Assembly (NCBI GenBank): GCA_026414545.1 | Contig: JAOAIU010000024.1 | Span: 3,695 to 67,694 of the forward strand | Length of the DNA: 64,000 nt | DNA from: Candidatus Saccharicenans sp. | GTDB lineage: Bacteria > Acidobacteriota > Aminicenantia > Aminicenantales > Saccharicenantaceae | Direction of reading: 5' to 3' | In this document: positions 6,259-26,747 of the stretch, in pieces | How positions within the stretch are numbered: position 1 is the stretch's first letter | How the letters are laid out: the number at the start of each line of letters is the position of its first letter | Program-made: the position numbers and the translations under genes | The notes under the pieces: generated by a model | Database searches by the model: none | What the model saw: only the letters and a program-made list of their open reading frames with translations | What the model was told of the DNA's origin: nothing

Positions 6259-6287
6259 TTGACAAATGTCATTTCTTGGCTTATAAT
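6259..6287 (+). promoter_or_regulatory. Consensus sigma70-type promoter (TTGACA-17 nt-TATAAT) with A-tract UP-like element and an inverted repeat over the -35 box
   Basis: TTGACA at 6259-6264, exactly 17 nt of spacer, then TATAAT at 6282-6287. It is preceded by the A-rich tract CCAAAAAAAATTACAAAAAAATATAAAAATAG (6226-6258). TGACA-AA-TGTCA (6260-6271) overlaps the -35 box. The RBS GAAGGAAG and the ATG at 6309 follow. Confidence 0.7.
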
Positions 6288-6308
6288 GTAAACCGAAAGA
6301 AGGAAGCA

Positions 6309-7565: not shown

Positions 7566-7728
7566 GCCGGGCTCGCTCCGGCTCAAACGATAAAGGTGCG
7601 CGGGAGCAAAATTTGATTGGGGGTTGATGATGGGCCTTGTTAACCAACTAATCAAGATTCCACCTTAGGTCCCGGGCCTCAGGTTATCTTGATTTCTTAA
7701 AACTGACACCTTTTAAGGAGAAAACAAG

Positions 7729-8775
7729 ATGGAAAGGATTGTTAATCTTTACCTGCGGGGAATGGAACTCGAAAATCCCCAGAAACATGAGGACATGGTT
7801 CTTTTCCCCATAACCGCCAGGCTCAACCAGGGTCCGGATTACCTTACCCTGGCCGAGGCCCTGGAGAAAGGGCTGTTTGAAGTGGGCGAGGTTGGGCCAG
7901 GTGGCTCCGTACCGGAACTGAAAGCCACCAACAATGGTGAAAAACCGGTCCTGCTGCTCGACGGCGAAGAATTGAGGGGCGCCAAGCAGAACCGGGTACT
8001 CAACACCACCATCATGATCGGTCCTAAAAGCTCGGTGGTTATCCCGGTCAGCTGCGTCGAAGCCCGCCGCTGGCACGGCCCTTCCCTTCGCATGGAAAAG
8101 TCCGAGCACATGATGGCTCACTATATCCGCCGAAAAAAGATGGCCCAGGTTCACCGCAACCTGGAAATTAATCGCAGTTTCAGGTCGGACCAGTCCGAAA
8201 TCTGGGCCGATATTGATCATCTGGCTCACAATTTACAGGTAGAATCACCAACCGGAGCCATGAGCGACATCTATGAAGCCAGGGAAAAAGACCTGAAAGC
8301 TTATCTCCAGGCCTTTTCTTGCATCCCGGAACAGAAAGGTCTGCTGGTCTTCATCGAAGGCCAGCCGGTAGGTCTGGAATTTGTCTCCAGAGATGCTGCC
8401 TTCAGCCGGCTGTTCCAGAAGCTTCTCAAGAGCTACGTCCTGGAAGCTATCAACCTTAAGCACGAAAAGAAAGCCGGGAAGAAGAGTAAAAAGAATTCGG
8501 AAGCAGCAAACCCAGTCAGCCTAGAGCAAGCCAGGGTTTTTATCGATGCTGCCGGGCGATGCGAAGAAAAGAGATTCCAGTCCATCGGCCTGGGTGTTTC
8601 CTGCCGCTACCGGAGTGATTCCATGGTCGGGGCAGCCCTGGAAGTTGACGGCTCGGTGCCGCATCTGGCTTTCTTTGCGATTAATAACGGAAATGAACAA
8701 AACAGGTCCTGGCGTCAAGAAGAAAATTTCCCGCAACTTCGCATCAGGAAACGCTACCTGTTTGACGAGGAATAA
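7729..8775 (+). CDS. Conserved hypothetical protein, DUF6569 / ARPP-1-like (family name recalled from memory, needs an HMM check)
   Basis: 348 aa. The N-terminal block LFPI...DYLTLAEALEKGLFEVGEVGPGGSVPELKATNNGEKPVLLLDGEELRGAKQNRVLNTTIMI...IPVSCVEARRW matches a widespread uncharacterised bacterial family as I remember it. RBS AAGGAGAA precedes the ATG. Confidence 0.45.
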   Translation: MERIVNLYLRGMELENPQKHEDMVLFPITARLNQGPDYLTLAEALEKGLFEVGEVGPGGSVPELKATNNGEKPVLLLDGEELRGAKQNRVLNTTIMIGPKSSVVIPVSCVEARRWHGPSLRMEKSEHMMAHYIRRKKMAQVHRNLEINRSFRSDQSEIWADIDHLAHNLQVESPTGAMSDIYEAREKDLKAYLQAFSCIPEQKGLLVFIEGQPVGLEFVSRDAAFSRLFQKLLKSYVLEAINLKHEKKAGKKSKKNSEAANPVSLEQARVFIDAAGRCEEKRFQSIGLGVSCRYRSDSMVGAALEVDGSVPHLAFFAINNGNEQNRSWRQEENFPQLRIRKRYLFDEE

Positions 8776-9016: not shown

Positions 9017-9808
9017 ATGTGTCGTCTGCTGGGACTTATAGCCAATCAGTCGGTGGACCTTGAATTTTCTCTGGACAAGTTTAAAAAATACTCCAGCCTC
9101 AATCAGGATGGCTGGGGAATCGGCTGGTACGAGAATGGCTCGGCCAGAATCTATAAGGAAGCCCTTAGCGCTTGGGTTGACCCCGGCTACAATCAGAAGT
9201 CAAGAGAGGTCCAATCAAAAATAATTATCGCCCACGTCAGAGCCGCCACCACCGGAAAAAGGGCCAGAGCAAACTCCCATCCTTTTATGAAGGATAACTG
9301 GATATTTGCGCATAACGGTTTGGTCCCCAGAGAACACCTAATTAAGCTGCTGACCGCAGCCCATAAAAAGGATCTTGAAGGTCAGACCGATTCGGAAGTC
9401 TATTTCCGCTGGATTCTTCAATGCCTGGATAAGAACGGAGAAGTTGTAAAGGGCATCAGCCAAGCAGTTGGCGAAATTATCGGAAAAACTCATTCAAATT
9501 GCTACCACGGTTTGAATTTCCTGCTGTCTGACGGCCAGAGACTTTATGCCCTCCGCTTTTCTAATCCCGGAAGCCTCGCTTATTATTCGCTTTATTATTT
9601 GTTGCGGGACCCGAAAGTGGACGGGCCGTCAGAATTCGCCTCCGAAGAAACCAAGATCATTTTAAGAAGTAAATCCCTGAAGGGGCAACGAGCTATCCTG
9701 GTCTGCTCTGAAAAGTTGACCGAAGAAAATTGGCAGGAGATAAAACCTGGTTACCTTCTGGAGGTCGGCCCGGACCTGCGGGTCCAGGAAAACCTGGTTA
9801 TAAAATGA
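9017..9808 (+). CDS. Class II (Ntn-type) glutamine amidotransferase, YafJ/GATase_4-like
   Basis: The N-terminal MC (Cys2 nucleophile after Met removal), DGWGIGWY, AHVRAATTG, NSHPF and WIFAHNG motifs are typical of stand-alone class II amidotransferases. A strong RBS AAGGAGGAAG is present. Confidence 0.8.
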   Translation: MCRLLGLIANQSVDLEFSLDKFKKYSSLNQDGWGIGWYENGSARIYKEALSAWVDPGYNQKSREVQSKIIIAHVRAATTGKRARANSHPFMKDNWIFAHNGLVPREHLIKLLTAAHKKDLEGQTDSEVYFRWILQCLDKNGEVVKGISQAVGEIIGKTHSNCYHGLNFLLSDGQRLYALRFSNPGSLAYYSLYYLLRDPKVDGPSEFASEETKIILRSKSLKGQRAILVCSEKLTEENWQEIKPGYLLEVGPDLRVQENLVIK

Positions 9809-17869: not shown

Positions 17870-18313
17870 TCAAACTGGAACCCGAGGGTCGTTCTTGACC
17901 ACGTTGAGCACCAGCTGGGTTACGGTGCGGTCAATGTACTTGATTGACAGGACTTTCTTGATGAACTGGTTCAGATCCTGGCGGTCGAGGAAACAGCCTA
18001 TGACCACCGAATCCCAGTCTCCGGTGACATCGAACACGGCCATAACCCGGCGGTCTTCGGCAATTTTCTGCTGGGTTTCCAGCAGTTTGCCCTGGGTAAA
18101 CCGCATCAGGATCACCGCCATCAGGCCAAAGCCGAAATATTCGGGGTTAAGAACAGGGATGTAACCCTTGATGGCTCCAGCCTCTTCCAGCTTTCTTATG
18201 GTCTGGATCACAGCCGGGACAGAAATCCCCGTTTCCCGGGCAATCTCCCGGTAGCTTTTCCTGGCATCCTGATTAAGGCAGGCGACGATTTTTCTTTCGG
18301 TTTCTGCCGGCAT
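17870..18313 (-). CDS. Lrp/AsnC-family transcriptional regulator
   Basis: 147 aa with an N-terminal wHTH (DARKSYREIARETGISVPAVIQTIRKLEEAGAIKGY) and a C-terminal RAM/ACT-like domain. It is divergent from glnA. Confidence 0.85.
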   Translation of the reverse strand: MPAETERKIVACLNQDARKSYREIARETGISVPAVIQTIRKLEEAGAIKGYIPVLNPEYFGFGLMAVILMRFTQGKLLETQQKIAEDRRVMAVFDVTGDWDSVVIGCFLDRQDLNQFIKKVLSIKYIDRTVTQLVLNVVKNDPRVPV

Positions 18314-18381: not shown

Positions 18382-18463
18382 AACTTCATAAATGAAATTA
18401 AAACTGGAAAATTTCCTAACACGTCTCTGGCGCCCATGACTATTTTAATAAATGGAGGGAAAA

Positions 18464-19861
18464 ATGCAAGAAGGAATTAAAAACCTTTACGGACTGAGCA
18501 CAGAAGCTGAAGTACTGGAGGCAGTCCGTAAGGCAGAAAACCGCATAGAGTTCGTGCGGATTATGTTCACCGACATTCTGGGACGCCCGATGGATTTCTC
18601 GATTCCGGTTTCAGAGCTGGAGAAAGCCTTTTCCGAGGGCAAGGGCTTTGATGGCTCTTCGGTGGAAGGCTTTGTCCGGATAGAAGAAAGCGACCTGGTC
18701 ATCGTCCCCGACCCCAGGACCTTCAGGGTTTTCCCCTGGACCTACCAGGGCTTTGACCCGGCCATTTCCTGGAGAGAGGCCATCATGTTTGGCGACATCT
18801 ACCAGCCGGACGGGCGCCATTATCCGGGCGATAGCCGCTACGTCTTAAAAAGAGCCCTGGAAAGGATGAAGTCCGATTTCGGTTTTTCCGATTTCAAATG
18901 CGGCCCGGAGATGGAATTCTTCATTTTCCCCGACGACCAGAACCCGGTTCCTACCGACTCCGGCGGTTATTTCTTTGCCGGCAAGCACGGCGAGGTCCGG
19001 AAGGAAATCCAGCTCCTGCTGAAAAAGATGGGCATTGAACCTGAATACGACCATCATGAGGTGGCCCATGGCCAGCACGAAATCGACCTCAGGTATCAGA
19101 ACGCCCTGGAAATGGCTGACATTGTCATGGTCTTCAGGTACATGGCCAAAAAAGTAGCCAGGATGCACGGCCTTTACCTGACCTCCATGCCCAAGCCCAT
19201 CAACGGCCAGAACGGCAGCGGCATGCACGTCCATCAGTCCCTGTGGAAGAACGGGCACAATGCTTTTTTCGAGAAAGAAGCGCCCTACCATCTGTCGGCT
19301 GAGGCCCGGCACTACATCGCTGGCATCATCCATCACGCCCGGGAGATCTGTGCCATTTTCAGCCAGTGGGTAAATTCTTACAAGAGATTGATTGAAGGAT
19401 ATGAAGCTCCGGTCTACATAGCCTGGGGCCAGAAGAACCGCTCAGCCTACATCAGAGTGCCAGAGTACCAGCCGGGCAAAGAAAAAGCCACCCGCATAGA
19501 ATTGCGCTCCCCGGACCCGGGTTGCAACATATACCTGGCTCTGGCCACCATGCTGTCGGCTGGACTAGCCGGCCTCAAGATGGGCCTGGAACTCCCCGAC
19601 CCGGTCGAGGAAAACATATACCATATGAGCACCAGCAAGCAGAAGAAGGCCGGAATCCAGGTCTTGCCCAGGAATCTGGAAGAAGCTGTCCGGCTGGTAG
19701 AGAGGAGCCAGCTGGTCCGGGAAACACTGGGCGAGCAGCTGCACGAAAAATTCATAGCCAACAAGAAAAAAGAAATCGAAGACTACCTGCGGAATGTTCC
19801 GGACGAGTACGACAAGCAGGTCAGCCCCTACGAAATAAAACGTTACCTGCCGATGCTCTGA
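18464..19861 (+). CDS. glnA: Glutamine synthetase, type I
   Basis: Beta-grasp N-domain (IEFVRIMFTDILGRP), catalytic motifs (GFDGSSVEGF, GPEMEFF, HHEVAHGQHEIDL, NGSGMHVHQSLW) and the C-terminal RIELRSPD. I prefer ATG 18464 because GGAGGG lies 4 nt upstream; ATG 18452 is also possible. Confidence 0.9.
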   Translation: MQEGIKNLYGLSTEAEVLEAVRKAENRIEFVRIMFTDILGRPMDFSIPVSELEKAFSEGKGFDGSSVEGFVRIEESDLVIVPDPRTFRVFPWTYQGFDPAISWREAIMFGDIYQPDGRHYPGDSRYVLKRALERMKSDFGFSDFKCGPEMEFFIFPDDQNPVPTDSGGYFFAGKHGEVRKEIQLLLKKMGIEPEYDHHEVAHGQHEIDLRYQNALEMADIVMVFRYMAKKVARMHGLYLTSMPKPINGQNGSGMHVHQSLWKNGHNAFFEKEAPYHLSAEARHYIAGIIHHAREICAIFSQWVNSYKRLIEGYEAPVYIAWGQKNRSAYIRVPEYQPGKEKATRIELRSPDPGCNIYLALATMLSAGLAGLKMGLELPDPVEENIYHMSTSKQKKAGIQVLPRNLEEAVRLVERSQLVRETLGEQLHEKFIANKKKEIEDYLRNVPDEYDKQVSPYEIKRYLPML

Positions 19862-20111: not shown

Positions 20112-21218
20112 CTATTTTAGGTCTCGATAGCAGGTATTTCTGACCGTTCCGACCATGGCCCAGAAATTTTCCAGGGGGACATCGAGCTGTAAATGGTGGG
20201 TAGGCCCGATTATCAAGCCTCCCCGCCGGCCCACGGTCCTGAGCCTTTCCAGGACTTCGTCTCTGACTTCGTCGGGCGTTCCGAAAGGGAGGGTATACTG
20301 CAGGTCCATGGTTCCCCAGAAACACAGCCGGTCTCCGAACTCCTTCTTGAGCCGGGCCGGGTCCATCGAACGGGGTTGAACCGGGTTAAGCACGTCCAGC
20401 CCGATTTCTATCAGGTCCGGAATTATCGGATATATATTTCCGTCGGAATGGTAGGCAATTTTAAGAGCCGGGTTAATCCTTTTCAGAGTGGCTATCATCT
20501 CGGCCAGTCGTGGCTTCAGGAATCTTCTCCAGTGGCCAGGAGAAATCAACATCCGGTCCTGAGCTCCGACATCATCACCCAGCCAGATCATGTCCACTCC
20601 CAGCCCGGCCAGGTTTTTGGCCACCCGCAGATGATACTTAAAAGGAATGTCAAAAAGCCTGTCCACCAGCTCCGGGTTTCTTACCATGTCCAGCAGTGTC
20701 CGTTCCAGGCCCCTCAGGGCCCAGGCAGTTTCAAAAATGGTGGTCACCACCACCCCAACTATCCAGTATTCAGCTCCGAATCGTTCAACCGTCCATCTGG
20801 CCTCGGCATATAGCTCCGGGCGGTCGGGGTCAGGTGCCCGGTAGGAGTCAACGGCCCTATCCTCGGCCAGAGGATGACTGACGATTTCGGTATAGCGGCC
20901 GCGGCCAAACCTGGTTTCGTACTCCACATTTTTCCAGCCCACACCCCACTCATCCACATAGGTCAGTCCATCCTGGCTGTAAGACCGGGTGGCATAATAA
21001 GAATTGGCCCAGCCAACTGAGGTCAGAAGCAAATCGCAGCCAGTTAATCGCTCCAGAAGGTAACTATTGCCCCGGCCATGGGGGTTGTGAGCTTCCGGGC
21101 CCAACCCTAATGATGGCCGCAGCCTGTCGGCAAATTCTGGAGTAAAGCTCAAGTGCAACGGACATCGATCCGGCTCCTGGTGGTTCAGGGCCAACCAGAC
21201 CCTTTCCCGGGGTGTCAT
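20112..21218 (-). CDS. Uroporphyrinogen decarboxylase (URO-D) family protein (MtaA/CmuA-like methyltransferase family possible)
   Basis: 368 aa. The N-terminal RERVWLALNHQEPDRCP and the TIM-barrel-like layout, including the DMIWLGDDVG motif, are typical of URO-D family proteins. The substrate is unknown and no corrinoid protein is adjacent. Confidence 0.65.
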   Translation of the reverse strand: MTPRERVWLALNHQEPDRCPLHLSFTPEFADRLRPSLGLGPEAHNPHGRGNSYLLERLTGCDLLLTSVGWANSYYATRSYSQDGLTYVDEWGVGWKNVEYETRFGRGRYTEIVSHPLAEDRAVDSYRAPDPDRPELYAEARWTVERFGAEYWIVGVVVTTIFETAWALRGLERTLLDMVRNPELVDRLFDIPFKYHLRVAKNLAGLGVDMIWLGDDVGAQDRMLISPGHWRRFLKPRLAEMIATLKRINPALKIAYHSDGNIYPIIPDLIEIGLDVLNPVQPRSMDPARLKKEFGDRLCFWGTMDLQYTLPFGTPDEVRDEVLERLRTVGRRGGLIIGPTHHLQLDVPLENFWAMVGTVRNTCYRDLK

Positions 21219-21713
21219 GAATTTCCCTTCATATGAAAATTACATGGAAATTATATTTGGAATATCGGGCTTCCGCCAGCGGCCATGTTTCGCCCCCCAC
21301 AATATTAATCAGGCTGAATAATGAGGGGCTGCTCCTTACGGTGTTTCCGTTTCTGCTTCCAGCCCTGATTCCTTGCTTGAGTTGCTCACCAGCCGTCCCC
21401 ATCCCCCCCTTTATTCACTCCCTGCTTCAGACCATCTTTCATCTCAGAAAAATTTTTCTTGACAATCATTTTCCAGCTCATATATAAGAAAATATCATTA
21501 TCAGGGTATTATAGGTTAAGAAGGAGTTATACATTAAAACCAGTCTTGCTGGTTGGTGTATATCATTATCCGGGGGATTTTTTCCTATTATCCTGCCTCT
21601 TCTTTCGCCTGACCCCGCATTTCCGCCGAATTCCATTTCAAAACGAACGCCGCTTTTCCATCCTGGCTGGAAGGGCTTTAATCAATTAAATTCCATAAAA
21701 AGGGAGGCCTGTT

Positions 21714-22187
21714 TTGAGTGTTCATCAAACCATCAACCTGGATAGCCTCCAGGAAATCGTTGAAAGGCATGGCTACAACAAGAACAAACTGATTGCCATT
21801 CTCCAGGACATCCAGGCTGTTTATCATTACTTGCCGGCCGAGGCTTTGAAGACCCTCTCCAAGCTGCTGAAAATTCCGCTGGTGGACATCATTTCCGTGG
21901 CCACCTTTTACCGGGCCTTTAGCCTGACCCCCAAGGGCCGGCATGTGGCTACCGTGTGTATGGGTACAGCCTGTCATGTCCGCGGAGCTCCGAAAATCCT
22001 GGAAGAGTTTGAACGTCAGCTCAACATTCGCCGGGGAGAGACCACTGAAGACGGCGAGTGGTCGCTGGAAACCGTGGCCTGCCTGGGCTGCTGCGCCATC
22101 GGCCCGGTGGTGGTGGTCGACGGGGACTATCATGCCCATACCAGCATCAGGAAAGTCCCCACCATCCTCGACAGGTACCGAAAGTGA
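21714..22187 (+). CDS. NuoE/HndA-like thioredoxin-fold [2Fe-2S] subunit
   Basis: CMGTACHVRGA ... CLGCCAIGPVV four-Cys pattern. The start is a TTG, with RBS AGGGAGG 6 nt upstream. Confidence 0.85.
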   Translation: MSVHQTINLDSLQEIVERHGYNKNKLIAILQDIQAVYHYLPAEALKTLSKLLKIPLVDIISVATFYRAFSLTPKGRHVATVCMGTACHVRGAPKILEEFERQLNIRRGETTEDGEWSLETVACLGCCAIGPVVVVDGDYHAHTSIRKVPTILDRYRK

Positions 22188-22195
22188 GGCCGGCC

Positions 22196-24103
22196 ATGAA
22201 AAAGATAAAAAAGTTCAGGAACATCGAAGAGCTAAAAAAGGCCATTGAACAGCAGGAAGCCGGCCGTCAGCAGGAAAAAAAGAAAAAGGTCATCGTGGTA
22301 TCCTCCGGAACCTGCGGCCAGGCCCGGGGCTCGCTCAAAGTCATCGATGCCCTGAAAAAGGCTCTCCGGGAAGAGGGCCTGAAAGACCAGGTGGCCATCC
22401 GCATCACCGGCTGCCACGGGTTCTGTGAAGCCGAGCCGAACATCATCATCTACCCGGACAGGATTTTCTACCAGAAGCTGACCCCGGCTGATGTCCGGAC
22501 CGTAGTCAAGGAAACTCTGGTCGAAGGACGGGTGGTGGAGAAATTTCTCCACCGCGACCCCCTGACCAAAGAACGGGCCTGGTACGAGAATGAAATTCCC
22601 TTCTACCAGAAGCAGAAAAGAATCGTCCTGGGCGACAATGTTTTCGTCGACCCGACCAATTTGCTCGAGTACCTGGCCATCGGCGGCTTCCGGCCGTTCA
22701 TCAAGGCCCTAACCCGGATGAAGCCAGAAGATATCATCCAGACCGTCAAGGAATCAGGGCTGCGGGGCCGGGGTGGAGCCGGCTTCCCCACCGGAGTTAA
22801 ATGGGAAGCTACCCGCCGCTCGCCGGGCGACATCAAGTACATAATCTGCAACGGAGACGAAGGCGACCCCGGAGCTTACATGGACCGCAGCGTGCTGGAG
22901 GGCAACCCCTACCGGGTACTGGAAGGAATGATGATCGGAGCCCTGGCTATCGGCGCCCGGGAAGGCTACATCTATGTTCGCGATGAATACCCCCTGGCCG
23001 TTCGCCACGTGACCATGGCTCTGGAGCAACTTCACAAAGCCGGGTTGCTCGGAGAAAAGATCCTGGGGACCGATTTCAGCTTTGACCTTCACCTGGCCAA
23101 GGGAGCCGGGGCTTTTGTCTGCGGCGAGGAGACGGCGCTGATCGCTTCCATCGAAGGTCGGGTGGGCGAACCTCGCCAGAGACCACCCTTCCCGGCCCAG
23201 AAAGGTCTGTGGAGAAAACCCACCTGCATCAACAACGTCGAAACCTGGGCTAATATTCCCTTAATCATATTAAATGGAGCTGACTGGTTCTCCAGCATAG
23301 GAACCAGCGGCAGCAAGGGCACCAAGATTTTCTCCCTGGTAGGGAAAATCAATAACACCGGCCTGGTGGAAGTGCCCATGGGCATTACCCTGAGGGAAAT
23401 TATTTATGACATCGGTGGCGGCATCCCGGAAGGCAAAGCCTTCAAAGCCGTCCAGACCGGAGGGCCGTCGGGTGGCTGCCTGCCGGCCTCCATGCTGGAC
23501 CAGATCATCGATTATGAATCGCTGACTGCAGCCGGTTCCATCATGGGCTCGGGCGGCATGATCGTCATGGACGAGAAGACTTGCATGGTCGACGTGGCCA
23601 TGTACTTCCTCAACTTCCTCCGCGACGAAAGCTGCGGCAAATGCATCTCCTGCCGGGAAGGTACCCAGAGGATGTGGGAAATCGTCAGGGATATAACCGA
23701 AGGCAAAGGCCAACCGGGAGACCTGGAATTGCTGGAAGAACTGGCCCTGGCCACCAAGGAAGCTTCCATGTGCGGGCTGGGCCAGACCGCGGCCAACCCG
23801 GTTCTGTCCACCCTGAGATATTTCCGGGACGAATACGAAGCCCACATTTATGAGAAACGCTGCCCGGCTGGAGTCTGCAAGAGCTTGATTCGTTACGCGG
23901 TCATCCCCGAAAAATGTACCGGCTGCGAGGCCTGCAAGCGGGCCTGCCCTACTGGAGCCATCCAGGGTACCAGGAAGGATGTTCACCTGATTCTCTACGA
24001 CAAGTGCATCAAATGCGGAGCTTGCCTGGAAGCCTGTCGATTTGAGGCCATTGAAGCCCAGCGCGACGAGGCCATAACCATCGTCAGGGAGGTGAAGCCA
24101 TGA
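22196..24103 (+). CDS. NuoF/HndC/HydB-like NADH-binding flavoprotein with extra N-terminal [2Fe-2S] thioredoxin-like domain and C-terminal 2x[4Fe-4S] ferredoxin domain
   Basis: GLRGRGGAGFPTGVKW (FMN/NADH site), ESCGKCISCREG (N3 cluster), N-terminal SSGTCGQARG...GCHGFCE, and C-terminal CTGCEACKRACP / CIKCGACLEACR. I take the start at ATG 22196 (MKKIKKF); the track's 22058 start overlaps nuoE. Confidence 0.9.
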   Translation: MKKIKKFRNIEELKKAIEQQEAGRQQEKKKKVIVVSSGTCGQARGSLKVIDALKKALREEGLKDQVAIRITGCHGFCEAEPNIIIYPDRIFYQKLTPADVRTVVKETLVEGRVVEKFLHRDPLTKERAWYENEIPFYQKQKRIVLGDNVFVDPTNLLEYLAIGGFRPFIKALTRMKPEDIIQTVKESGLRGRGGAGFPTGVKWEATRRSPGDIKYIICNGDEGDPGAYMDRSVLEGNPYRVLEGMMIGALAIGAREGYIYVRDEYPLAVRHVTMALEQLHKAGLLGEKILGTDFSFDLHLAKGAGAFVCGEETALIASIEGRVGEPRQRPPFPAQKGLWRKPTCINNVETWANIPLIILNGADWFSSIGTSGSKGTKIFSLVGKINNTGLVEVPMGITLREIIYDIGGGIPEGKAFKAVQTGGPSGGCLPASMLDQIIDYESLTAAGSIMGSGGMIVMDEKTCMVDVAMYFLNFLRDESCGKCISCREGTQRMWEIVRDITEGKGQPGDLELLEELALATKEASMCGLGQTAANPVLSTLRYFRDEYEAHIYEKRCPAGVCKSLIRYAVIPEKCTGCEACKRACPTGAIQGTRKDVHLILYDKCIKCGACLEACRFEAIEAQRDEAITIVREVKP

Positions 24104-24780
24104 TCACCATGAAGATCAACGGGGTGGAAGTCAAGGCTGAAGAGGGCTGGACCATCCTGGAAACGGCCAAATTCTACGGCCTGGAAATTCCGACCCTCTG
24201 CTACCACGAAGGACTTAGTCCTTATGGCGGCTGCCGACTCTGCCTGGTGGAAATAGGCGAAGGGCCGAGAGCCAAGCTGGTTTCCTCCTGCACCTATCCG
24301 GCCGAGGAAGGTCTGGTGGTGCACACTGATACCAGGAGGGTGGTCCAGGCGCGACGGATGATGATCGAGCTGATGCTGTCGGTAGCTCCTTATTCCAAGG
24401 TTATCCAGGACCTAGCCTCCAAGTTCGGGGTCACCAGGATGCGCTTCAAGATCCGCAATGAAGAGTGCATCCTGTGCGGGCTGTGTGTCCGGATGTGCGA
24501 GGAGCAGATGGACGGTAAAGCCATAGGCTTTCAGAACCGGGGCTACCAGAGAAAAATCTCGACTCCCTTCGACATCCGCTCTGAAGAATGCCGGCTGTGC
24601 GGGGGCTGTATCTATATCTGCCCGGCCTGCCAGCTGCGCTGCCAGGGCCCGCAGGCTGAAACGGCCATCTGCAACGCCTGCTTAACCCTGGAACCCAGCT
24701 GCCTGGACTTCTACGACGAACTCCAGTGCTGGATGTACGATGCCGGCCGCTGCGGCACCTGCGTCCGGGAGAAAAAATAA
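24100..24780 (+). CDS. NuoG-N-terminal-like Fe-S protein ([2Fe-2S] Fer2_4 domain plus two 4Fe-4S-type Cys motifs), no catalytic domain
   Basis: 226 aa. INGVEV...TILETAKFYGLEIPTLCYHEGLSPYGGCRLCLVEI is the NuoG/HndD N-terminus, followed by CILCGLCVRMCEE and CRLCGGCIYICPAC. No H-cluster, molybdopterin or GltD domain follows. ATGA overlap with the upstream gene. Confidence 0.75.
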   Translation: MITMKINGVEVKAEEGWTILETAKFYGLEIPTLCYHEGLSPYGGCRLCLVEIGEGPRAKLVSSCTYPAEEGLVVHTDTRRVVQARRMMIELMLSVAPYSKVIQDLASKFGVTRMRFKIRNEECILCGLCVRMCEEQMDGKAIGFQNRGYQRKISTPFDIRSEECRLCGGCIYICPACQLRCQGPQAETAICNACLTLEPSCLDFYDELQCWMYDAGRCGTCVREKK

Positions 24781-24837
24781 TGACTTTAACCATAGATACA
24801 TCATTAAATTCAACAAAGGGAAAAAGGAGGTAAAACT

Positions 24838-26415
24838 ATGACCTACACAAAAATCAACAGGAGTGCAGCCACCTTAACCAAGAATAGAACCGAAGGTTCC
24901 ATCAGCCCCTTCAGCGGGATGTGTGTGACCTGCGTGGATGGCTGTATCGGGATGTGCGAAATCGGCAAATCGGCCTACCGGGGCACCGAAGTCCTCTATC
25001 CCCAGCCGTTTGGTTTGATAACCGCGGCCGCCGAGAAGGATTATCCGGTTGACCTGTCGCATTTTAACATCATGGGCACGGCAGCCGGGGCCTGGGGCGT
25101 GCCGGCCGACAGCGACCTGGCTACGTTCGAAAAAGTAAACATAGAAACCGCGGTCGGCCGCGACAAGGGGATCAAGTTGCGAGTACCTTTTGTCATCCCC
25201 GGCATGGGTTCGACCAACGTAGCCAAGCAAAACTGGGCCGGACTGGCCGTGGGCGCAGCCATCTCCGGAGCCATCCTGACCGTCGGCGAGAACGTCTGTG
25301 GAATGGATGAGGAAGCAGAGATAAAAAACGGCCGGGTGGTCCGCTCTCCTGACATGGAAATGAGAGTCCGCTCCTTCCAGAACTGGAGTGACGGTTATGG
25401 CACGGTCGTCGTCCAGGCCAACGTGGAAGACACCCGTCTGGGAGTCCAGGAATACGTTATTGAAAAACTCGGGGTTGAGGCTGTCGAGCTGAAATGGGGC
25501 CAGGGGGCCAAGGATATCGGCGGCGAGGTGAAAATAAAATCTCTGAAGAAAGCCCAGGAATTGAAAAGAAGGGGCTACATCGTCCTGCCCGACCCGGAAG
25601 ACCCGCTGGTCATCCAGGCCTTTGAAAAGGGCAGCTTCAAGGAATTCGAACGTCACAGCCGCCTGGGGATGGTGGAAGAAGAAAGCTTCATGAAACGGGT
25701 AGAAGAGCTCAGAAAGGCCGGAGCTAAATACGTCTTCCTGAAGACCGGTGCTTATCGCCCGGCTGACCTGGCCCGGGCCGTCAAATATGCCTCCAAGGCC
25801 AAGATTGACATGCTGACCATAGACGGAGCTGGCGGTGGAACCGGCATGAGCCCCTGGCGGATGATGAACGAATGGGGCATTCCGGGAGTGGAAATCTGGT
25901 CCCTGACCTATAAATACGCTGATTACCTGGCCAAGAAGGGAGAATACGTTCCTGATATCGTCTTTGCGGGCGGCATAACCTTTGAAGACCAGATCTTCAA
26001 GGCTATAGCCCTGGGCGCTCCCTATGTCAAAGCTGTGGGCATGGCTCGCTCTCCCCTGGCCGCAGCCATGGTTGGTAAGACCATCGGCAGTCGCATCAAG
26101 GACGGACAGATTCCGGTCTATGTCGAAAGGTTCGGAAACAGCGTTGAAGAAATTTTCATCACCGCTCCTGAACTTAAGAAGAGATTCGGAGAGAGGTTCA
26201 ACGAACTGCCGCCGGGAGCCATTGGTGTCTACACTTACTTCAAGCGGTTGAACCAGGGACTGCGGCAATTGATGGCCGGAGCCCGCAAATTCTCGCTGGG
26301 TTACATCACCCGGGACGATATTGGCGCCCTGACCATGGAAGCTGCCAGAATCAGCGGCATCAAGTACATCCAGGATATCGACCAAGAGGAAGTTAATCAA
26401 ATCCTCAATTCCTGA
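24838..26415 (+). CDS. Glutamate synthase-related FMN-binding protein (GltB domain-2 / Glu_synthase family) with N-terminal Cys cluster
   Basis: 525 aa. IDGAGGGTGMSPW corresponds to the GltB FMN-domain GGTGASP motif. The N-terminal CVTCVDGCIGMC is a CxxCxxxCxxxC motif. RBS AAAGGAGG is present. No amidotransferase or GXGXG domain is adjacent. Confidence 0.8.
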   Translation: MTYTKINRSAATLTKNRTEGSISPFSGMCVTCVDGCIGMCEIGKSAYRGTEVLYPQPFGLITAAAEKDYPVDLSHFNIMGTAAGAWGVPADSDLATFEKVNIETAVGRDKGIKLRVPFVIPGMGSTNVAKQNWAGLAVGAAISGAILTVGENVCGMDEEAEIKNGRVVRSPDMEMRVRSFQNWSDGYGTVVVQANVEDTRLGVQEYVIEKLGVEAVELKWGQGAKDIGGEVKIKSLKKAQELKRRGYIVLPDPEDPLVIQAFEKGSFKEFERHSRLGMVEEESFMKRVEELRKAGAKYVFLKTGAYRPADLARAVKYASKAKIDMLTIDGAGGGTGMSPWRMMNEWGIPGVEIWSLTYKYADYLAKKGEYVPDIVFAGGITFEDQIFKAIALGAPYVKAVGMARSPLAAAMVGKTIGSRIKDGQIPVYVERFGNSVEEIFITAPELKKRFGERFNELPPGAIGVYTYFKRLNQGLRQLMAGARKFSLGYITRDDIGALTMEAARISGIKYIQDIDQEEVNQILNS

Positions 26416-26443
26416 TTCCTCTTTTCCTATCAACCAGAAGGCA

Positions 26444-26479
26444 GAGCCTGACCCGTGAAGGGTCAGGCTCGCTTTTTTT
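26444..26479 (+). terminator. Rho-independent terminator after the gltB-like gene
   Basis: An 11-bp perfect stem GAGCCTGACCC / GGGTCAGGCTC with loop GTGAA, followed by GCTTTTTTT. Confidence 0.85.
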
Positions 26480-26747
26480 AGGGACCATTCCAACCAGATG
26501 TCTCTTCAGAATTCATGACTTCTATCCAGGAGGTGGCCACCGAAGGGAGACTCTCATCACCGGGAAAACAACCGGGACTAATCTGGATCCAGCCAGGACA
26601 GTAGTAACTGGCCGCGGCTATTTAACCATCTTCTTCAGCTTAGAATATGTAGATTCCGGTCCAATCTAACCTTTAGCCGTGTCAAAACGGCCCACGGCAT
26701 AGACTTATACCCCGTTCTTATGGTATAAGAAAAAGACCTGAAGAAAG

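What the first reader, a model, noticed from the sequence alone, without database searches (positions are those of the whole stretch)
21714..26415. NuoE-NuoF-NuoG(N-terminal)-like diaphorase module followed by a stand-alone GltB-FMN-domain protein instead of a hydrogenase or formate dehydrogenase
The first three genes are the classic HndABC/HydBC-type NADH-flavin/Fe-S module. NuoF carries an extra N-terminal [2Fe-2S] domain and a C-terminal 2x[4Fe-4S] domain, as seen in electron-bifurcating [FeFe]-hydrogenases and related complexes.

The expected catalytic partner is missing. The NuoG-like protein stops after about 226 aa of Fe-S domains. The next gene, 57 nt downstream and ending in a strong terminator, encodes a 525-aa glutamate-synthase-family FMN protein with an N-terminal CxxCxxxCxxxC motif. 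It has no adjacent amidotransferase (GltB domain 1) or GXGXG (domain 3) gene.

The operon lies 2 kb from glnA and lrp. This suggests an unusual NADH-linked (possibly ferredoxin-coupled or bifurcating) glutamate synthase-like oxidoreductase. The Sporomusa-type Nfn (StnABC) pairs a similar module with a GltD-like domain, not a GltB-like one, so this combination looks distinct as far as I know.
Basis: partly seen in the sequence, partly recalled or inferred. Interest (0 to 1): 0.65.

Follow-up and report, generated by a model that had tools for sequence, protein, structure and literature searches.

The report
Bfu redox module with glutamate-synthase-like subunit
Four co-oriented genes join the NADH/ferredoxin core of electron-bifurcating hydrogenases to a very conserved, divergent relative of the flavin domain of glutamate synthase; this unit recurs in hundreds of anaerobe genomes that mostly lack ordinary glutamate synthase, and I found no paper describing it.

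Summary
Genes 21714-26415 encode four proteins:
- a NuoE/BfuC-like protein;
- a BfuB-type NuoF with an N-terminal 2Fe-2S domain and a C-terminal 2x[4Fe-4S] domain;
- a 226-aa NuoG-N-terminal protein whose best solved relative is WorA of the type-2 Bfu enzyme WorABCSL;
- a 525-aa Glu_synthase-family FMN protein ("GltBL").

The genes are tightly spaced, and a strong terminator follows the last one.

GltBL keeps the glutamate-synthase synthase-site motifs. It lacks the canonical 3Fe-4S cysteines and has an invariant N-terminal CX2CX3CX3C motif instead. The genome (92.8% complete) holds no glutaminase or GXGXG domain.

The order NuoE-NuoF-BfuA-GltBL is conserved in nearly all of 77 evaluable loci from many bacterial and some archaeal phyla. 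At least 597 species carry GltBL at 67-97% identity. Neighbours are often GDH, GlnA, an NtrC-like regulator or NrpR. Only 3 of 50 carrier genomes have a canonical GltB. In one locus GltBL sits beside split glutaminase and GXGXG genes.

Best reading: a new type-2 Bfu enzyme that links NAD(H) and ferredoxin to ammonia-dependent interconversion of 2-oxoglutarate and glutamate. The substrate and the bifurcation are inferred, not shown. I rate it a new variant of a known kind.

The parts
21459..21498 (+). Promoter-like stretch about 220 nt upstream of the first gene (low confidence)
   Evidence: TTGACA at 21459-21464, a 16-nt spacer and TATATA, read. The scan lists an overlapping 9/12 match at 21470-21498, but it found no more sites than shuffled sequence gives. 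There is no sigma-54 -24/-12 match upstream of the operon. No Rfam element is present.
21714..22187 (+). bfuC / nuoE-like gene: thioredoxin-like [2Fe-2S] subunit, 157 aa
   Evidence: PF01257, E 5e-47, covering the full profile. NCBIfam matches to HoxE and NuoE fall below the equivalog cut-offs. It is conserved directly upstream of the NuoF homologue in 57 of 58 evaluable loci.
22196..24103 (+). bfuB / nuoF-like gene: NADH/FMN subunit with an N-terminal 2Fe-2S domain and a C-terminal 2x[4Fe-4S] ferredoxin domain, 635 aa
   Evidence: Pfam finds Complex1_51K, SLBB, NADH_4Fe-4S, 2Fe-2S_thioredx (residues 25-106) and Fer4 x2 (568-631). The best solved relatives are 7T2R_B at 812 bits, then HydB, NfnB, WorB and StnB, all aligned over the full length. 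The N-terminal domain has only three cysteines (C40, C73, C77); Ser36 stands where the solved homologue has a cysteine.
24100..24780 (+). bfuA / short nuoG-N-terminal-like gene: [2Fe-2S] plus two [4Fe-4S] motifs and a C-terminal tail with eight conserved cysteines, 226 aa
   Evidence: Pfam finds Fer2_4 and a 4Fe-4S dicluster. The best solved relative is WorA, 9MQX_A, E 1e-37, residues 4-205. Cysteines 34/45/48/64, 123/126/129/133 and 164/167/170/174 are invariant in 59 homologues. Cysteines 177, 181, 191, 194, 201, 210, 218 and 221 are kept in 51-59 of 59. No His-ligated cluster motif is present. The gene overlaps bfuB by 4 nt.
24838..26415 (+). gltBL: FMN TIM-barrel protein of the glutamate-synthase family with an N-terminal CX2CX3CX3C motif, 525 aa; the presumed third-substrate subunit
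   Evidence: PF01645 at 67 bits, partial coverage. The AF2 model has pLDDT 79 and pTM 0.84 and is a beta/alpha barrel. Synthase-site motifs are kept and the canonical 3Fe-4S cysteines are absent. Identity is 67-97% in at least 597 species. A strong Shine-Dalgarno sequence lies 57 nt after bfuA.
26444..26479 (+). Intrinsic terminator closing the operon
   Evidence: GAGCCTGACCC-GTGAA-GGGTCAGGCTC followed by GCTTTTTTT: an 11-bp stem with 8 G-C pairs.
18452..19861 (+). Context: glnA, type I glutamine synthetase
   Evidence: TIGR00653 at 482 bits, cut-off 429. Pfam finds Gln-synt_N and Gln-synt_C. GlnA lies within 7 kb of gltBL in 8 of 80 related loci.
17870..18313 (-). Context: Lrp/AsnC-family regulator, divergent from glnA
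   Evidence: Pfam finds HTH_24, HTH_AsnC-type and AsnC_trans_reg. It is conserved next to glnA in L014, L015 and L018.

Best explanation
The four genes form one operon for a soluble iron-sulfur flavoprotein complex of the Bfu (HydABC-type) family, in its type-2 layout.

Proposed parts:
- BfuB binds NAD(H) at its FMN. Together with BfuC it forms the core that also exchanges electrons with ferredoxin through the C-terminal 2x[4Fe-4S] domain.
- The short BfuA wires this core, through its 2Fe-2S and two 4Fe-4S clusters and probably its cysteine-rich tail, to the N-terminal four-cysteine cluster of GltBL.
- GltBL passes the electrons to its own FMN.

Proposed reaction: GltBL reduces the imine formed from 2-oxoglutarate and free ammonia to L-glutamate, or runs the reverse. 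It works without a glutaminase subunit. The complex would therefore be an ammonia-dependent, NAD(H)- and ferredoxin-linked 'glutamate synthase'. In most carriers it would stand in for the canonical GltBD enzyme.

Shown here: the domain content, the operon structure, the membership of the first three proteins in the Bfu family by homology, the conserved synteny and the conserved synthase-site motifs.

Inferred: that the four proteins form one complex, what the substrate is, which way the reaction runs, and whether ferredoxin is coupled by bifurcation or confurcation.
For: Operon:
- The genes are co-oriented with an 8-nt gap, a 4-nt overlap and a 57-nt gap. Each has a Shine-Dalgarno sequence, and one strong terminator follows the last gene.

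Bfu identity:
- BfuB matches the B subunits of solved bifurcating enzymes over its full length (812 bits to 7T2R_B; also HydB, NfnB, WorB and StnB). Complex-I NuoF gives about 380 bits, over the core only.
- The best solved relative of BfuA is the small WorA of the type-2 enzyme WorABCSL. BfuA lacks the His-ligated cluster motif and any catalytic domain.
- The genome has two other NuoEF-type modules with their own NuoG-like partners, so this module is a dedicated one.

Partnership with GltBL:
- BfuA lies directly upstream of GltBL in 73 of 77 evaluable loci, plus one more with a 536-nt gap. NuoF is upstream in 65 of 66 and NuoE in 57 of 58. These loci come from many bacterial phyla and from Thermoplasmata/Methanobacteriota MAGs.
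- Pairwise distances of GltBL and BfuA correlate (r = 0.79, Mantel p = 0.001).

Glutamate link:
- GltBL passes the Pfam Glu_synthase cut-off.
- It aligns with E. coli GltB and with archaeal-type FMN subunits at GE(G/N), R-x-G-V, K-x-x-Q-G-A-K...G-G, the following Arg, DGxxGGTGxSP and AGG...K..ALGA. From my memory of the Synechocystis and Azospirillum structures, the Q-G-A-K lysine and the downstream arginine bind the two carboxylates of 2-oxoglutarate.
- In L081, a GltBL 68% identical to this one is followed by split GATase_2 and GXGXG genes and an aminotransferase gene.
- Within 7 kb of GltBL, 11 of 80 loci have GDH, 8 have GlnA, 18 have an NtrC-like sigma-54 activator and 4 have NrpR.
- In L073, GltBL directly follows glnA and 2-oxoacid:ferredoxin oxidoreductase genes.
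- Canonical GltB (PF00310) is present in 3 of 50 carrier genomes. Within the phylum it is present in 1 of 20 carriers against 66 of 181 non-carriers (Fisher p = 0.0046).
- In 39 of 65 loci the NuoF homologue is fused to a GltD-like module, the natural electron donor of GltB.

Expression:
- Contigs 88-94% identical to the window, from digester RNA libraries, cover all four genes. One contig spans the bfuA/gltBL junction.
Against: - No biochemical data exist for any member.
- GltBL is only remotely like characterised glutamate synthases. A family profile reaches GltS structures at only E = 0.06. hhalign against E. coli GltB gives 59% probability over 81 columns. There is no NCBIfam glutamate-synthase hit.
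- The closest folds are generic FMN barrels: alpha-hydroxyacid oxidases, IDI-2 and IMPDH, at TM about 0.43.
- The canonical 3Fe-4S site, the glutaminase domain and the GXGXG domain are all absent.
- A GltB2 homologue with another function is known: N-methylglutamate synthase MgsC.
- Thermodynamics are awkward. The 2-oxoglutarate+NH4+/glutamate couple (about -130 mV, from my own knowledge) lies above NAD+/NADH. In the Bfu enzymes with a mid-potential third substrate (H2, formate, NADPH; the published Bfu scheme, PMC12318220), that substrate lies between NAD and ferredoxin.
- GDH is present in this genome and often lies next door, so the reaction would look redundant.
- The N-terminal 2Fe-2S domain of BfuB, part of the proposed bifurcation site, has only three cysteines here.
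- 57% of the sampled phylum genomes have neither GltBL nor canonical GltB. The anti-correlation is therefore modest and is confounded by phylogeny.
- GltBL also occurs without the Bfu genes in L031, L073 and L076.
Confidence: 0.5

Rival explanations
1. The enzyme is a plain, non-bifurcating NADH-dependent glutamate synthase. Here the NuoE/NuoF/BfuA chain simply replaces GltD as the entry point for pyridine-nucleotide electrons. Ferredoxin plays no energetic role.
For: Reductive amination of 2-oxoglutarate by NADH is already exergonic, so coupling to ferredoxin is not needed (established thermodynamics). The N-terminal 2Fe-2S domain of BfuB, part of the proposed bifurcation site, has only three cysteines in the window protein and in many homologues. 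In 39 of 65 loci the C-terminal ferredoxin domain of NuoF is replaced by a GltD-like module. That replacement shows the ferredoxin-binding domain can be dispensed with in this family.
Against: The window's BfuB keeps the complete C-terminal 2x[4Fe-4S] domain. It is much closer to proven bifurcating B subunits (up to 812 bits) than to non-bifurcating NuoF or FdsB (about 380 bits). A five-flavin/cluster-domain machine would be a costly way to do what the GDH already present in the genome does with one polypeptide.
Confidence: 0.2
2. GltBL acts on another substrate. Candidates are a different 2-oxo acid or imine, an N-alkyl amino acid as in N-methylglutamate synthase, or an alpha-hydroxy acid. 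The complex would then be a Bfu enzyme of some other pathway, not of glutamate formation.
For: Sequence similarity to characterised GltS is marginal. Foldseek ranks alpha-hydroxyacid oxidases, IDI-2 and IMPDH first. MgsC shows that GltB2 homologues can have non-GOGAT functions. No glutaminase or GXGXG partner is present. Some stand-alone copies sit beside IclR regulators and a molybdopterin oxidoreductase rather than nitrogen genes.
Against: Pfam assigns the protein to Glu_synthase, not FMN_dh. The Q-G-A-K...G-G and Arg motifs of the GltS synthase site are invariant or nearly so. The recurrent neighbours are GDH, GlnA, NrpR and NtrC-like genes. One locus pairs GltBL with split glutaminase and GXGXG genes. 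Many operons carry a GltD-like module. Carriers mostly lack canonical GltB. The window's glnA is a type I glutamine synthetase, not GmaS. MgsA and MgsB homologues are absent.
Confidence: 0.2
3. The genes are only co-regulated neighbours. BfuABC would be a stand-alone NADH:ferredoxin oxidoreductase. GltBL would be a separate ferredoxin-dependent enzyme that does not bind it.
For: GltBL occurs without the dedicated BfuA in at least four genomes (L031, L073, L076, L081), so it can work with another donor. Schut et al. raise the same caveat for other predicted type-2 Bfu gene clusters.
Against: BfuA has no catalytic domain and would be a dead end without a partner. The gene order and the close spacing (median 69 nt) are kept across phyla in 73 of 77 loci. 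GltBL and BfuA distances co-vary. Both carry extra conserved cysteine motifs at the termini that would face each other in a type-2 layout.
Confidence: 0.07

Closest known systems
WorABCSL, the tungsten aldehyde oxidoreductase-Bfu complex of Acetomicrobium mobile (type-2 Bfu; PDB 9MQX; PMC12318220)
   Same: It has the BfuC/BfuB core plus a small BfuA of about 230-250 aa with the A1, A2 and A4 clusters, no A3 or A5, and a cysteine-bearing C-terminal tail that docks a separate catalytic module. WorA is the best solved relative of the window's BfuA (E 1e-37). WorB scores 721 bits with the window's BfuB.
   Different: The catalytic module here is one FMN/Fe-S TIM-barrel protein of the glutamate-synthase family, not a tungstopterin WorL with a polyferredoxin WorS. 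The BfuA tail has eight conserved cysteines rather than one zinc finger plus a helix. The likely third substrate has a higher potential than NAD(H). The N-terminal 2Fe-2S domain of BfuB has three cysteines.
Electron-bifurcating hydrogenases HydABC and NiFe-HydABCSL (PDB 7P5H, 8A5E, 8A6T, 7T2R)
   Same: The BfuB and BfuC subunits have the same domain order. 7T2R_B is the closest solved homologue of the window's NuoF-like protein (812 bits, residues 33-619).
   Different: There is no H-cluster domain and no NiFe subunits. BfuA is cut down to its Fe-S N-terminal part.
NfnABC / StnABC transhydrogenases (Bfu family; PDB 9N5U, 9BOV, 8OH5)
   Same: They share the BfuBC core (691-744 bits) and use a glutamate-synthase-derived module as the third-substrate site.
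   Different: Nfn/Stn use a GltD-like FAD/NADPH module fused to BfuA and have no GltB-like subunit. The window operon has a GltB-like FMN subunit and no GltD module. In 39 of 65 related loci a GltD-like module is present as well, but fused to the C-terminus of NuoF.
Bacterial NADPH-glutamate synthase GltBD and ferredoxin-glutamate synthase
   Same: Both have an FMN TIM barrel of Pfam family Glu_synthase with conserved synthase-site motifs (QGAK...GG, Arg, GGTGxSP) and an adjacent Fe-S cluster that feeds the FMN.
   Different: GltBL has no Ntn-glutaminase domain, no central domain, no GXGXG domain and no canonical CX5CX4C 3Fe-4S site. It has an N-terminal CX2CX3CX3C motif instead, and its electron donor is a Bfu module rather than GltD or free ferredoxin. 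Sequence similarity is marginal.
Archaeal-type split glutamate synthase (separate GATase, FMN and GXGXG subunits, MJ1351-type FMN subunit)
   Same: It has a stand-alone FMN subunit of about 500 aa with an N-terminal Fe-S part. In L081, GltBL takes the place of that subunit next to split GATase_2 and GXGXG genes.
   Different: The archaeal-type FMN subunits found in four carrier genomes are only 24-33% identical to GltBL. They have an N-terminal 2x[4Fe-4S] ferredoxin domain, keep the canonical 3Fe-4S cysteines and score 297 bits against the GltB equivalog, where GltBL scores nothing.

Membership tests
Bfu (BfuABC / HydABC-type) electron-bifurcating enzyme family | BfuB: a NuoF-like FMN/NADH core with an extra N-terminal [2Fe-2S] domain and a C-terminal 2x[4Fe-4S] ferredoxin domain | tested here: met
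   The Pfam domains are in that order. Full-length matches to solved BfuB subunits score 664-812 bits, against about 380 bits for complex-I NuoF. Caveat: the N-terminal domain has three cysteines (C40, C73, C77) plus Ser36 instead of four cysteines.
Bfu (BfuABC / HydABC-type) electron-bifurcating enzyme family | BfuC: a NuoE-like thioredoxin-fold [2Fe-2S] subunit encoded next to BfuB | tested here: met
   PF01257, E 5e-47, full profile. The gene lies 8 nt upstream of bfuB.
Bfu (BfuABC / HydABC-type) electron-bifurcating enzyme family | BfuA: a NuoG-N-terminal-like subunit with the A1 [2Fe-2S] cluster and the A2/A4 [4Fe-4S] clusters; type 2 means no A3 or A5 cluster and a separate catalytic subunit | tested here: met
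   The cysteine motifs for one 2Fe-2S and two 4Fe-4S clusters are invariant. There is no His-ligated motif and no C-terminal catalytic domain. The best solved relative is the type-2 WorA. The type definition is taken from PMC9304861.
Bfu (BfuABC / HydABC-type) electron-bifurcating enzyme family | Coupled reduction or oxidation of NAD(H) and ferredoxin with a third substrate (bifurcation activity) | not testable with these tools
   This needs anaerobic enzyme assays.
Glutamate synthase (GltB large subunit / Fd-GOGAT) | An FMN-binding synthase domain (Pfam Glu_synthase) with the 2-oxoglutarate-binding motifs | tested here: met
   PF01645 at 67 bits, above the 20.4 cut-off, but only profile positions 185-308 plus a weak 60-156 stretch. 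K219/Q222-G-A-K225, G228-G229 and the FMN-phosphate motifs are invariant, and R245 is nearly invariant, in 30 homologues. In the MAFFT alignment with E. coli GltB the canonical arginine falls at R244, one position from R245. The roles of these residues are recalled from the GltS structures, not tested.
Glutamate synthase (GltB large subunit / Fd-GOGAT) | A [3Fe-4S] cluster bound by CX5CX4C inside the FMN domain | tested here: not met
   The aligned segment of GltBL has no cysteine. E. coli GltB and the archaeal-type subunits have the triad. GltBL has an N-terminal CX2CX3CX3C motif instead.
Glutamate synthase (GltB large subunit / Fd-GOGAT) | An Ntn (class II) glutamine amidotransferase domain | tested here: not met
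   PF00310 is absent from the whole genome. The ORF at 9017 is GATase_4/EgtC-like.
Glutamate synthase (GltB large subunit / Fd-GOGAT) | A C-terminal GXGXG beta-helix domain | tested here: not met
   PF01493 is absent from the whole genome.
Archaeal-type split glutamate synthase FMN subunit (MJ1351-type) | An N-terminal 2x[4Fe-4S] ferredoxin domain, the canonical 3Fe-4S triad, and companion GATase and GXGXG genes | tested here: not met
   GltBL is 24-33% identical to such subunits from L087-L090 and lacks both Fe-S features. No companion genes exist in this genome. Only in L081 does a GltBL sit next to such companions.
Stn/NfnABC transhydrogenase | A GltD-like FAD/NADP(H) module (Fer4_20 + Pyr_redox_2) as the third-substrate site | tested here: not met
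   No such domain occurs in any of the four window proteins. It is present, fused to NuoF, in the 'long' form of related loci.
N-methylglutamate synthase MgsABC | MgsA (GATase-like) and MgsB (GXGXG) subunits together with the FMN subunit, usually with gmaS | tested here: not met
   No PF00310 or PF01493 gene is in the genome. The neighbouring ligase is a type I glutamine synthetase (482 bits, cut-off 429), not a type III or GmaS enzyme. The family description comes from PMC6237917.
FMN-dependent alpha-hydroxyacid oxidases/dehydrogenases (Pfam FMN_dh) | A sequence match to FMN_dh | tested here: not met
   No FMN_dh hit at E <= 0.01. There is only fold-level similarity, TMq 0.40-0.45 at 12-16% identity. 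The family's catalytic His/Arg/Tyr set was not examined.

The most novel reading that the evidence does not exclude
The complex is a new class of glutamate synthase and a new branch of the Bfu family, and it ties central nitrogen metabolism directly to the ferredoxin pool. Two stoichiometries fit the architecture.

(a) True flavin-based bifurcation with NADH as the donor: 2 NADH + Fd(ox) + 2-oxoglutarate + NH4+ -> glutamate + 2 NAD+ + Fd(red). The energy of reductive amination would be saved as reduced ferredoxin. Run in reverse, the reaction would let amino-acid fermenters oxidise glutamate onto NAD+ with help from reduced ferredoxin.

(b) Confurcation of NADH plus reduced ferredoxin. This would give an ATP-independent, strongly driven ammonium assimilation that replaces GS-GOGAT.

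Either way, it would be the main glutamate-forming or glutamate-degrading enzyme in hundreds of mostly uncultured anaerobic lineages that lack GltBD.
Probability: 0.28. Interest if true: 0.85.

Novelty: new variant of a known kind. Interest (0 to 1): 0.72.

Why it matters
Glutamate formation is the entry point of nitrogen into biomass. Textbooks know three electron donors for it: NADPH or NADH through GltD, ferredoxin, and NAD(P)H through GDH.

A Bfu-coupled, glutaminase-free enzyme would add a fourth route. It would extend the Bfu family beyond H2, formate, NADPH, F420, CO and aldehydes to an amino-acid couple. It would also explain how many uncultured anaerobes without GltBD balance nitrogen assimilation or glutamate fermentation against their ferredoxin and NADH pools. 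These include Aminicenantes, Zixibacteria, Planctomycetota, Bacteroidota, Dehalococcoidia and Thermoplasmata.

GltBL is extremely conserved: 67-72% identity between bacterial phyla and archaea, with a mean pairwise distance of 0.28 against about 0.40 for its partners. That points to a central, strongly constrained function.

[quoted passage not shown] Those names hide the unit.

Tried and rejected
- Sequence and profile searches of GltBL against PDB chains found no informative relative. phmmer found nothing real, and the family profile reached GltS only at E = 0.06, behind de-novo TIM barrels.
- Foldseek on the AF2 model returned only generic FMN barrels and did not separate GltS from hydroxyacid oxidases.
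- The first attempt at a genome-wide locus search failed because the alignment was too divergent. It was repeated with closer sequences.
- I tested whether weak GATase_2 hits in five carrier genomes were partners of stand-alone GltBL copies. In four of them the hit belongs to a separate archaeal-type split GOGAT operon with its own FMN subunit, so I dropped the idea. Only L081 has a true GltBL-GATase-GXGXG cluster.
- The amidotransferase at 9017 is rejected as a GltB domain-1 candidate.
- The second PF01645 hit in the genome is IMP dehydrogenase.
- I found no sigma-54 promoter and no Rfam riboswitch upstream of the window operon.
- I found no RNA run of this organism itself. Only relatives' contigs, from libraries partly of uncertain type, were available, so co-transcription is suggested but not shown.
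- Literature searches for any description of a Bfu/NuoEF module paired with a GltB-like protein found none. A search for the GltS active-site residue numbers also found nothing readable, so those residue roles rest on memory.

Full report
**1. What is in the window**

Four co-oriented ORFs lie on the + strand.

| Gene | Coordinates | Size | Domains |
|---|---|---|---|
| NuoE-like | 21714-22187 | 157 aa | PF01257, full profile, E 5e-47 |
| NuoF-like | 22196-24103 | 635 aa | thioredoxin-like 2Fe-2S (25-106), Complex1_51K, SLBB, NADH_4Fe-4S, two Fer4 motifs (568-631) |
| NuoG-N-terminal-like | 24100-24780 | 226 aa | Fer2_4 plus a 4Fe-4S dicluster |
| GltB-like ('GltBL') | 24838-26415 | 525 aa | PF01645 at 67 bits (cut-off 20.4), profile positions 185-308 of 369 only |

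- The ORF lister extends the NuoF-like frame to a GTG at 22058. That start would overlap nuoE, so the ATG at 22196 with its own Shine-Dalgarno sequence is the plausible start.
- NCBIfam gives only below-cut-off NuoE/HoxE, NuoF and HoxU/[FeFe]-hydrogenase-N-terminus matches for the first three proteins. It gives nothing for the fourth except a faint IDI-2 hit.
- The junctions are an 8-nt gap, a 4-nt ATGA overlap, and a 57-nt gap with AAAGGAGG.
- A strong terminator follows at 26444-26470: an 11-bp stem with 8 G-C pairs, then a T-run.

**2. Organism and genome**

- The closest GltBL homologues (92-97% identity) come from Candidatus Saccharicenans (Aminicenantes) MAGs.
- The best DNA holder of the window is a hot-spring metagenome.
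- The genome held for the window is 2.52 Mb in 80 contigs and 92.8% complete.
- It contains one Glu_synthase-family gene, which is this one. The only other hit is IMP dehydrogenase.
- It contains no GATase_2 domain and no GXGXG domain.
- A GDH-family gene is present on another contig.
- The class II amidotransferase at 9017 is GATase_4/EgtC-like, not a GltB domain 1.
- glnA (18452-19861) is a bona fide type I glutamine synthetase. It has a divergent Lrp/AsnC gene beside it.
- A URO-D/MtaA-family gene on the opposite strand separates glnA from the operon.
- The genome has two further NuoEF-type modules. One on contig C3 has an 830-aa NuoG/formate-dehydrogenase-like partner. One on C29 has a HoxU-like partner. 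The module studied here is therefore a dedicated paralogue.

**3. The first three proteins are a type-2 Bfu module**

BfuB (the NuoF-like protein):
- It aligns over its full length, including both extra domains, with the B subunits of solved bifurcating enzymes.

| Solved chain | Bits |
|---|---|
| NiFe-HydABCSL, 7T2R_B | 812 |
| HydB, 7Q4V/8A5E | 772 |
| NfnB, 9N5U | 744 |
| HydB, 8A6T | 740 |
| 9BOV_B | 738 |
| WorB, 9MQX | 721 |
| StnB, 8OH5 | 691 |
| T. maritima HydB, 7P5H | 664 |
| Non-bifurcating FdsB and complex-I NuoF (core only) | about 320-390 |

BfuA (the 226-aa protein):
- Its best solved relative is WorA, the small BfuA of the type-2 enzyme WorABCSL (9MQX_A, E 1e-37, residues 4-205).
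- In 59 homologues the cysteines for one 2Fe-2S cluster (34/45/48/64) and two 4Fe-4S clusters (123/126/129/133 and 164/167/170/174) are invariant.
- There is no His-ligated cluster motif.
- Eight more C-terminal cysteines (177, 181, 191, 194, 201, 210, 218, 221) are kept in 51-59 of 59 sequences.
- By the published definition, type 2 means a BfuA without the A3 and A5 clusters that is fed by extra subunits through A4 (PMC9304861; PMC12318220). This module fits that definition.

One departure:
- The N-terminal 2Fe-2S domain of BfuB is named by the WorABCSL paper as part of the bifurcation site, together with FMN, a 4Fe-4S cluster and the BfuC cluster.
- In the window protein it has only three cysteines, with Ser36 where 7T2R_B has a cysteine.
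- Across GltBL-linked homologues this position varies among CxxxxC, SxxxC and Cxxxx.

**4. The fourth protein is a separate family within the glutamate-synthase superfamily**

How far it is from known enzymes:
- An exhaustive HMMER scan of 1.84 billion 50%-identity representatives found only 1115 hits at E <= 0.001, and about fifteen full-length ones. More than 8000 90%-identity clusters exist. The family is therefore large but extremely uniform, and canonical GltB is not among its near relatives.
- A family profile reaches GltS structures only at E = 0.06.
- hhalign against the E. coli GltB FMN domain gives 59% probability over 81 columns.
- The AF2 model (pLDDT 79, pTM 0.84) is a beta/alpha barrel. 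Its nearest solved folds are generic FMN barrels at TM about 0.43.

What it shares with glutamate synthase:
- I aligned GltBL with E. coli GltB and with three archaeal-type split FMN subunits. The following synthase-site motifs line up.

| GltBL | Canonical GltS |
|---|---|
| G150-E151 | GEGG |
| R200-x-G-V | SGRFGV |
| K219-x-x-Q222-G-A-K225 ... G228-G229 | IKxxQGAKPGxGG |
| an arginine at 244/245 | (aligned arginine) |
| DGAGGGTGMSP | (FMN-phosphate motif) |
| AGG...K..ALGA | (FMN-phosphate motif) |

- From my memory of the Synechocystis and Azospirillum structures, the QGAK lysine and the downstream arginine hold the two carboxylates of 2-oxoglutarate. I could not find an open paper to confirm the residue numbers.

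What differs:
- The canonical 3Fe-4S triad (GCxxxxxCxxxxC) is replaced by a cysteine-free segment.
- GltBL instead has an N-terminal C29-x2-C32-x3-C36-x3-C40 motif. All four cysteines are invariant in 30 homologues.
- The archaeal-type FMN subunits score 297 bits against the NCBIfam GltB equivalog. GltBL scores nothing.

**5. Conservation of the unit**

- A scan of one genome per GTDB species found at least 597 species with a GltBL.
- The best 80 loci are 67-97% identical to the window protein. They come from Aminicenantes, Zixibacteria, Bacteroidota/Ignavibacteria, Planctomycetota, Chloroflexota, Firmicutes, Actinomycetota, Elusimicrobiota, Desulfobacterota and Thermoplasmata/Methanobacteriota MAGs.
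- BfuA lies directly upstream of GltBL in 73 of 77 evaluable loci, with a median gap of 69 nt. One more locus has it at 536 nt.
- NuoF lies upstream of BfuA in 65 of 66 loci, and NuoE upstream of NuoF in 57 of 58.
- Two forms exist:
  - a short form like the window's, where NuoF ends in the 2x[4Fe-4S] domain (26 loci);
  - a long form, where that domain is replaced by a GltD-like Fer4_20 + Pyr_redox_2 module fused to NuoF (39 loci).
- GltBL is the most conserved component. Its mean pairwise distance is 0.28, against 0.41 for BfuA and 0.39 for NuoF.
- GltBL distances co-vary with those of BfuA (r = 0.79, Mantel p = 0.001). Shared descent contributes to that correlation.

**6. Evidence bearing on the substrate**

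(a) Neighbours within 7 kb of GltBL:
- 11 of 80 loci have GDH.
- 8 have GlnA.
- 18 have an NtrC-like sigma-54 activator, mostly orthologous and directly upstream. Six of 15 of these loci checked have a -24/-12 promoter match.
- 4 have NrpR.

(b) In L073 (Ca. Hakubella), GltBL directly follows glnA and 2-oxoacid:ferredoxin oxidoreductase genes.

(c) In L081 (a Methylomirabilota MAG), a GltBL 68% identical to the window's is followed by a split GATase_2 protein, a GXGXG protein and an aminotransferase. Here GltBL occupies the FMN-subunit slot of a split glutamate synthase.

(d) The long-form operons contain a GltD-like module, the natural partner of GltB.

(e) Canonical GltB is rare in carriers.
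- Only 3 of 50 carrier genomes have a full GATase_2-bearing GltB.
- In a sample of 201 genomes of the window's phylum, 1 of 20 carriers has it against 66 of 181 non-carriers (Fisher p = 0.0046).
- This anti-correlation is real but modest. It is confounded by phylogeny, because 57% of the sample has neither gene.

Against the glutamate reading:
- A GltB2 homologue with a different function is known: MgsC of N-methylglutamate synthase. Its MgsA and MgsB partners and a GmaS-type ligase are absent here.
- The weak GATase_2 hits in four other carrier genomes belong to ordinary archaeal-type split GOGAT operons with their own FMN subunit. They say nothing about GltBL.
- GltBL without a dedicated BfuA occurs in at least four genomes. 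One close relative is in the cultured Thermanaeromonas toyohensis ToBE.

**7. Expression**

- I found no RNA run of this organism.
- Contigs 88-94% identical to the window, from anaerobic-digester and sludge RNA libraries, cover all four genes. Some of these libraries are only labelled RNA-Seq on a metagenomic source.
- One 621-nt contig in run X18 and one 221-nt contig in run X19 span the bfuA/gltBL junction.
- This is compatible with co-transcription in close relatives. It is not proof.

**8. Mechanism proposed**

- NAD(H) reacts at the BfuB FMN.
- The BfuBC core also communicates with ferredoxin through the C-terminal 2x[4Fe-4S] domain.
- BfuA carries electrons through A1, A2 and A4, and probably through a cluster or zinc site in its cysteine-rich tail, to the four-cysteine cluster at the N-terminus of GltBL. 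In function, that cluster replaces the lost 3Fe-4S centre.
- From there the electrons reach the GltBL FMN. The FMN reduces 2-iminoglutarate formed from 2-oxoglutarate and free ammonia.
- Direction and coupling are open.
- The glutamate couple is more positive than NAD+/NADH. That sets it apart from the mid-potential third substrates (H2, formate, NADPH) on which the published Bfu scheme is built.
- Three options remain:
  - classical flavin-based bifurcation with NADH as donor, and ferredoxin plus iminoglutarate as acceptors (or the reverse in glutamate fermentation);
  - confurcation of NADH and reduced ferredoxin, giving a strongly driven, ATP-free ammonium assimilation;
  - no energetic coupling at all.
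- The three-cysteine N-terminal domain of BfuB and the existence of the GltD-fused long form keep the last option alive.

**9. Literature and novelty**

- The Bfu classification (PMC9304861) lists modules for H2, formate, NADPH, F420, aldehydes, CO, benzoyl-CoA and Mbh, and leaves 17 clades unassigned. Neither its text nor its held supplement mentions glutamate synthase or GltB.
- Searches combining Bfu/HydBC/NuoEF terms with glutamate synthase, and searches for the annotation names of GltBL, found no description of this unit.
- Earlier notes of this scan report the same operon in other genomes and reach a similar reading. I treated them as leads. I re-derived the synteny, the two forms, the neighbours and the closest solved relatives independently.
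- I add four things:
  - the motif-level comparison with canonical and archaeal-type subunits;
  - the GltBL-GATase-GXGXG locus;
  - the canonical-GltB absence statistics;
  - the cysteine variation in the BfuB N-terminal domain.
- I class the finding as a new variant of a known kind: a Bfu enzyme with an undescribed catalytic module.

**10. Confidence**

| Claim | Confidence |
|---|---|
| The four genes are one operon encoding a Bfu-type module plus GltBL | about 0.85-0.9 |
| The proteins form one complex | about 0.8 |
| The third substrate is the 2-oxoglutarate/ammonia/glutamate couple | about 0.55 |
| Ferredoxin is energetically coupled | about 0.45 |
| The best explanation as a whole | 0.5 |

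Noticed in passing
window 22196-22500 (BfuB residues 33-80); also L006-L085 homologues: The N-terminal 2Fe-2S domain of the NuoF-like protein has only three cysteines (C40, C73, C77). Ser36 stands where the solved homologue 7T2R_B has a cysteine. Among 62 GltBL-linked homologues this stretch is CxxxxC, SxxxC or Cxxxx. This cluster is considered part of the Bfu bifurcation site, so its ligation or even its presence may differ in this subgroup.
   Followed up: partly
window 24628-24780 (BfuA residues 177-226): Eight extra cysteines in the C-terminal tail of the short NuoG-like protein are conserved in 51-59 of 59 homologues. That is enough for one or two additional metal sites. WorA has a single zinc finger plus a helix at this place.
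   Followed up: partly
L008, L009, L012-L017, L021 and 30 other related loci: In 39 of 65 related loci the NuoF homologue is about 1050 aa long. It carries a GltD-like Fer4_20 + Pyr_redox_2 module in place of the C-terminal ferredoxin domain. NuoE is then about 280 aa, with an unannotated C-terminal extension. The window has the short form, although most Aminicenantes relatives have the long one.
   Followed up: partly
L081 2-5066 (Methylomirabilota MAG): Here GltBL is directly followed by a split class II glutaminase (372 aa), a GXGXG protein (250 aa) and a class I/II aminotransferase. GltBL begins at the contig edge, so the genes upstream are unknown. No dedicated BfuA was found elsewhere in that 1.7-Mb MAG.
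   Followed up: partly
window 20112-21218 (-): A URO-D family protein with weak similarity to MtaA/CmuA methyltransferases sits between glnA and the operon on the opposite strand. It is conserved in that place only in the two Saccharicenans relatives (L006, L018).
   Followed up: no
window 6276-8775: An HTH_3 + Peptidase_M78 (IrrE-like) gene is followed by an ARPP-1 domain gene (ARG and Rhodanese-Phosphatase-superfamily-associated protein). This may be a small regulatory or defence-type pair.
   Followed up: no
window 9017-9808: This is a stand-alone class II amidotransferase of the GATase_4 type. Its best NCBIfam match is EgtC, below the cut-off. It is unrelated to the GltB glutaminase domain.
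   Followed up: partly
window 24874-26493 (-): A 539-aa open frame runs antisense through the whole gltBL gene, and similar long antisense frames overlie nuoF. I take these to be by-products of codon composition and did not examine them.
   Followed up: no
genome contigs C3:24898-29760 and C29:88345-90830: The genome has two further NuoE/NuoF modules. One has an 830-aa NuoG/formate-dehydrogenase-like subunit. The other has a 228-aa HoxU-like subunit. The organism therefore has three distinct NADH-linked Fe-S flavoprotein modules.
   Followed up: partly
L038, L041, L045, L058, L070, L084 (about 400-540 nt upstream of nuoE): In loci with an NtrC-like activator upstream, 6 of 15 have a good sigma-54 -24/-12 match. 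A small ORF of about 111 aa with no Pfam match lies just before nuoE. Neither feature is present in the window.
   Followed up: partly
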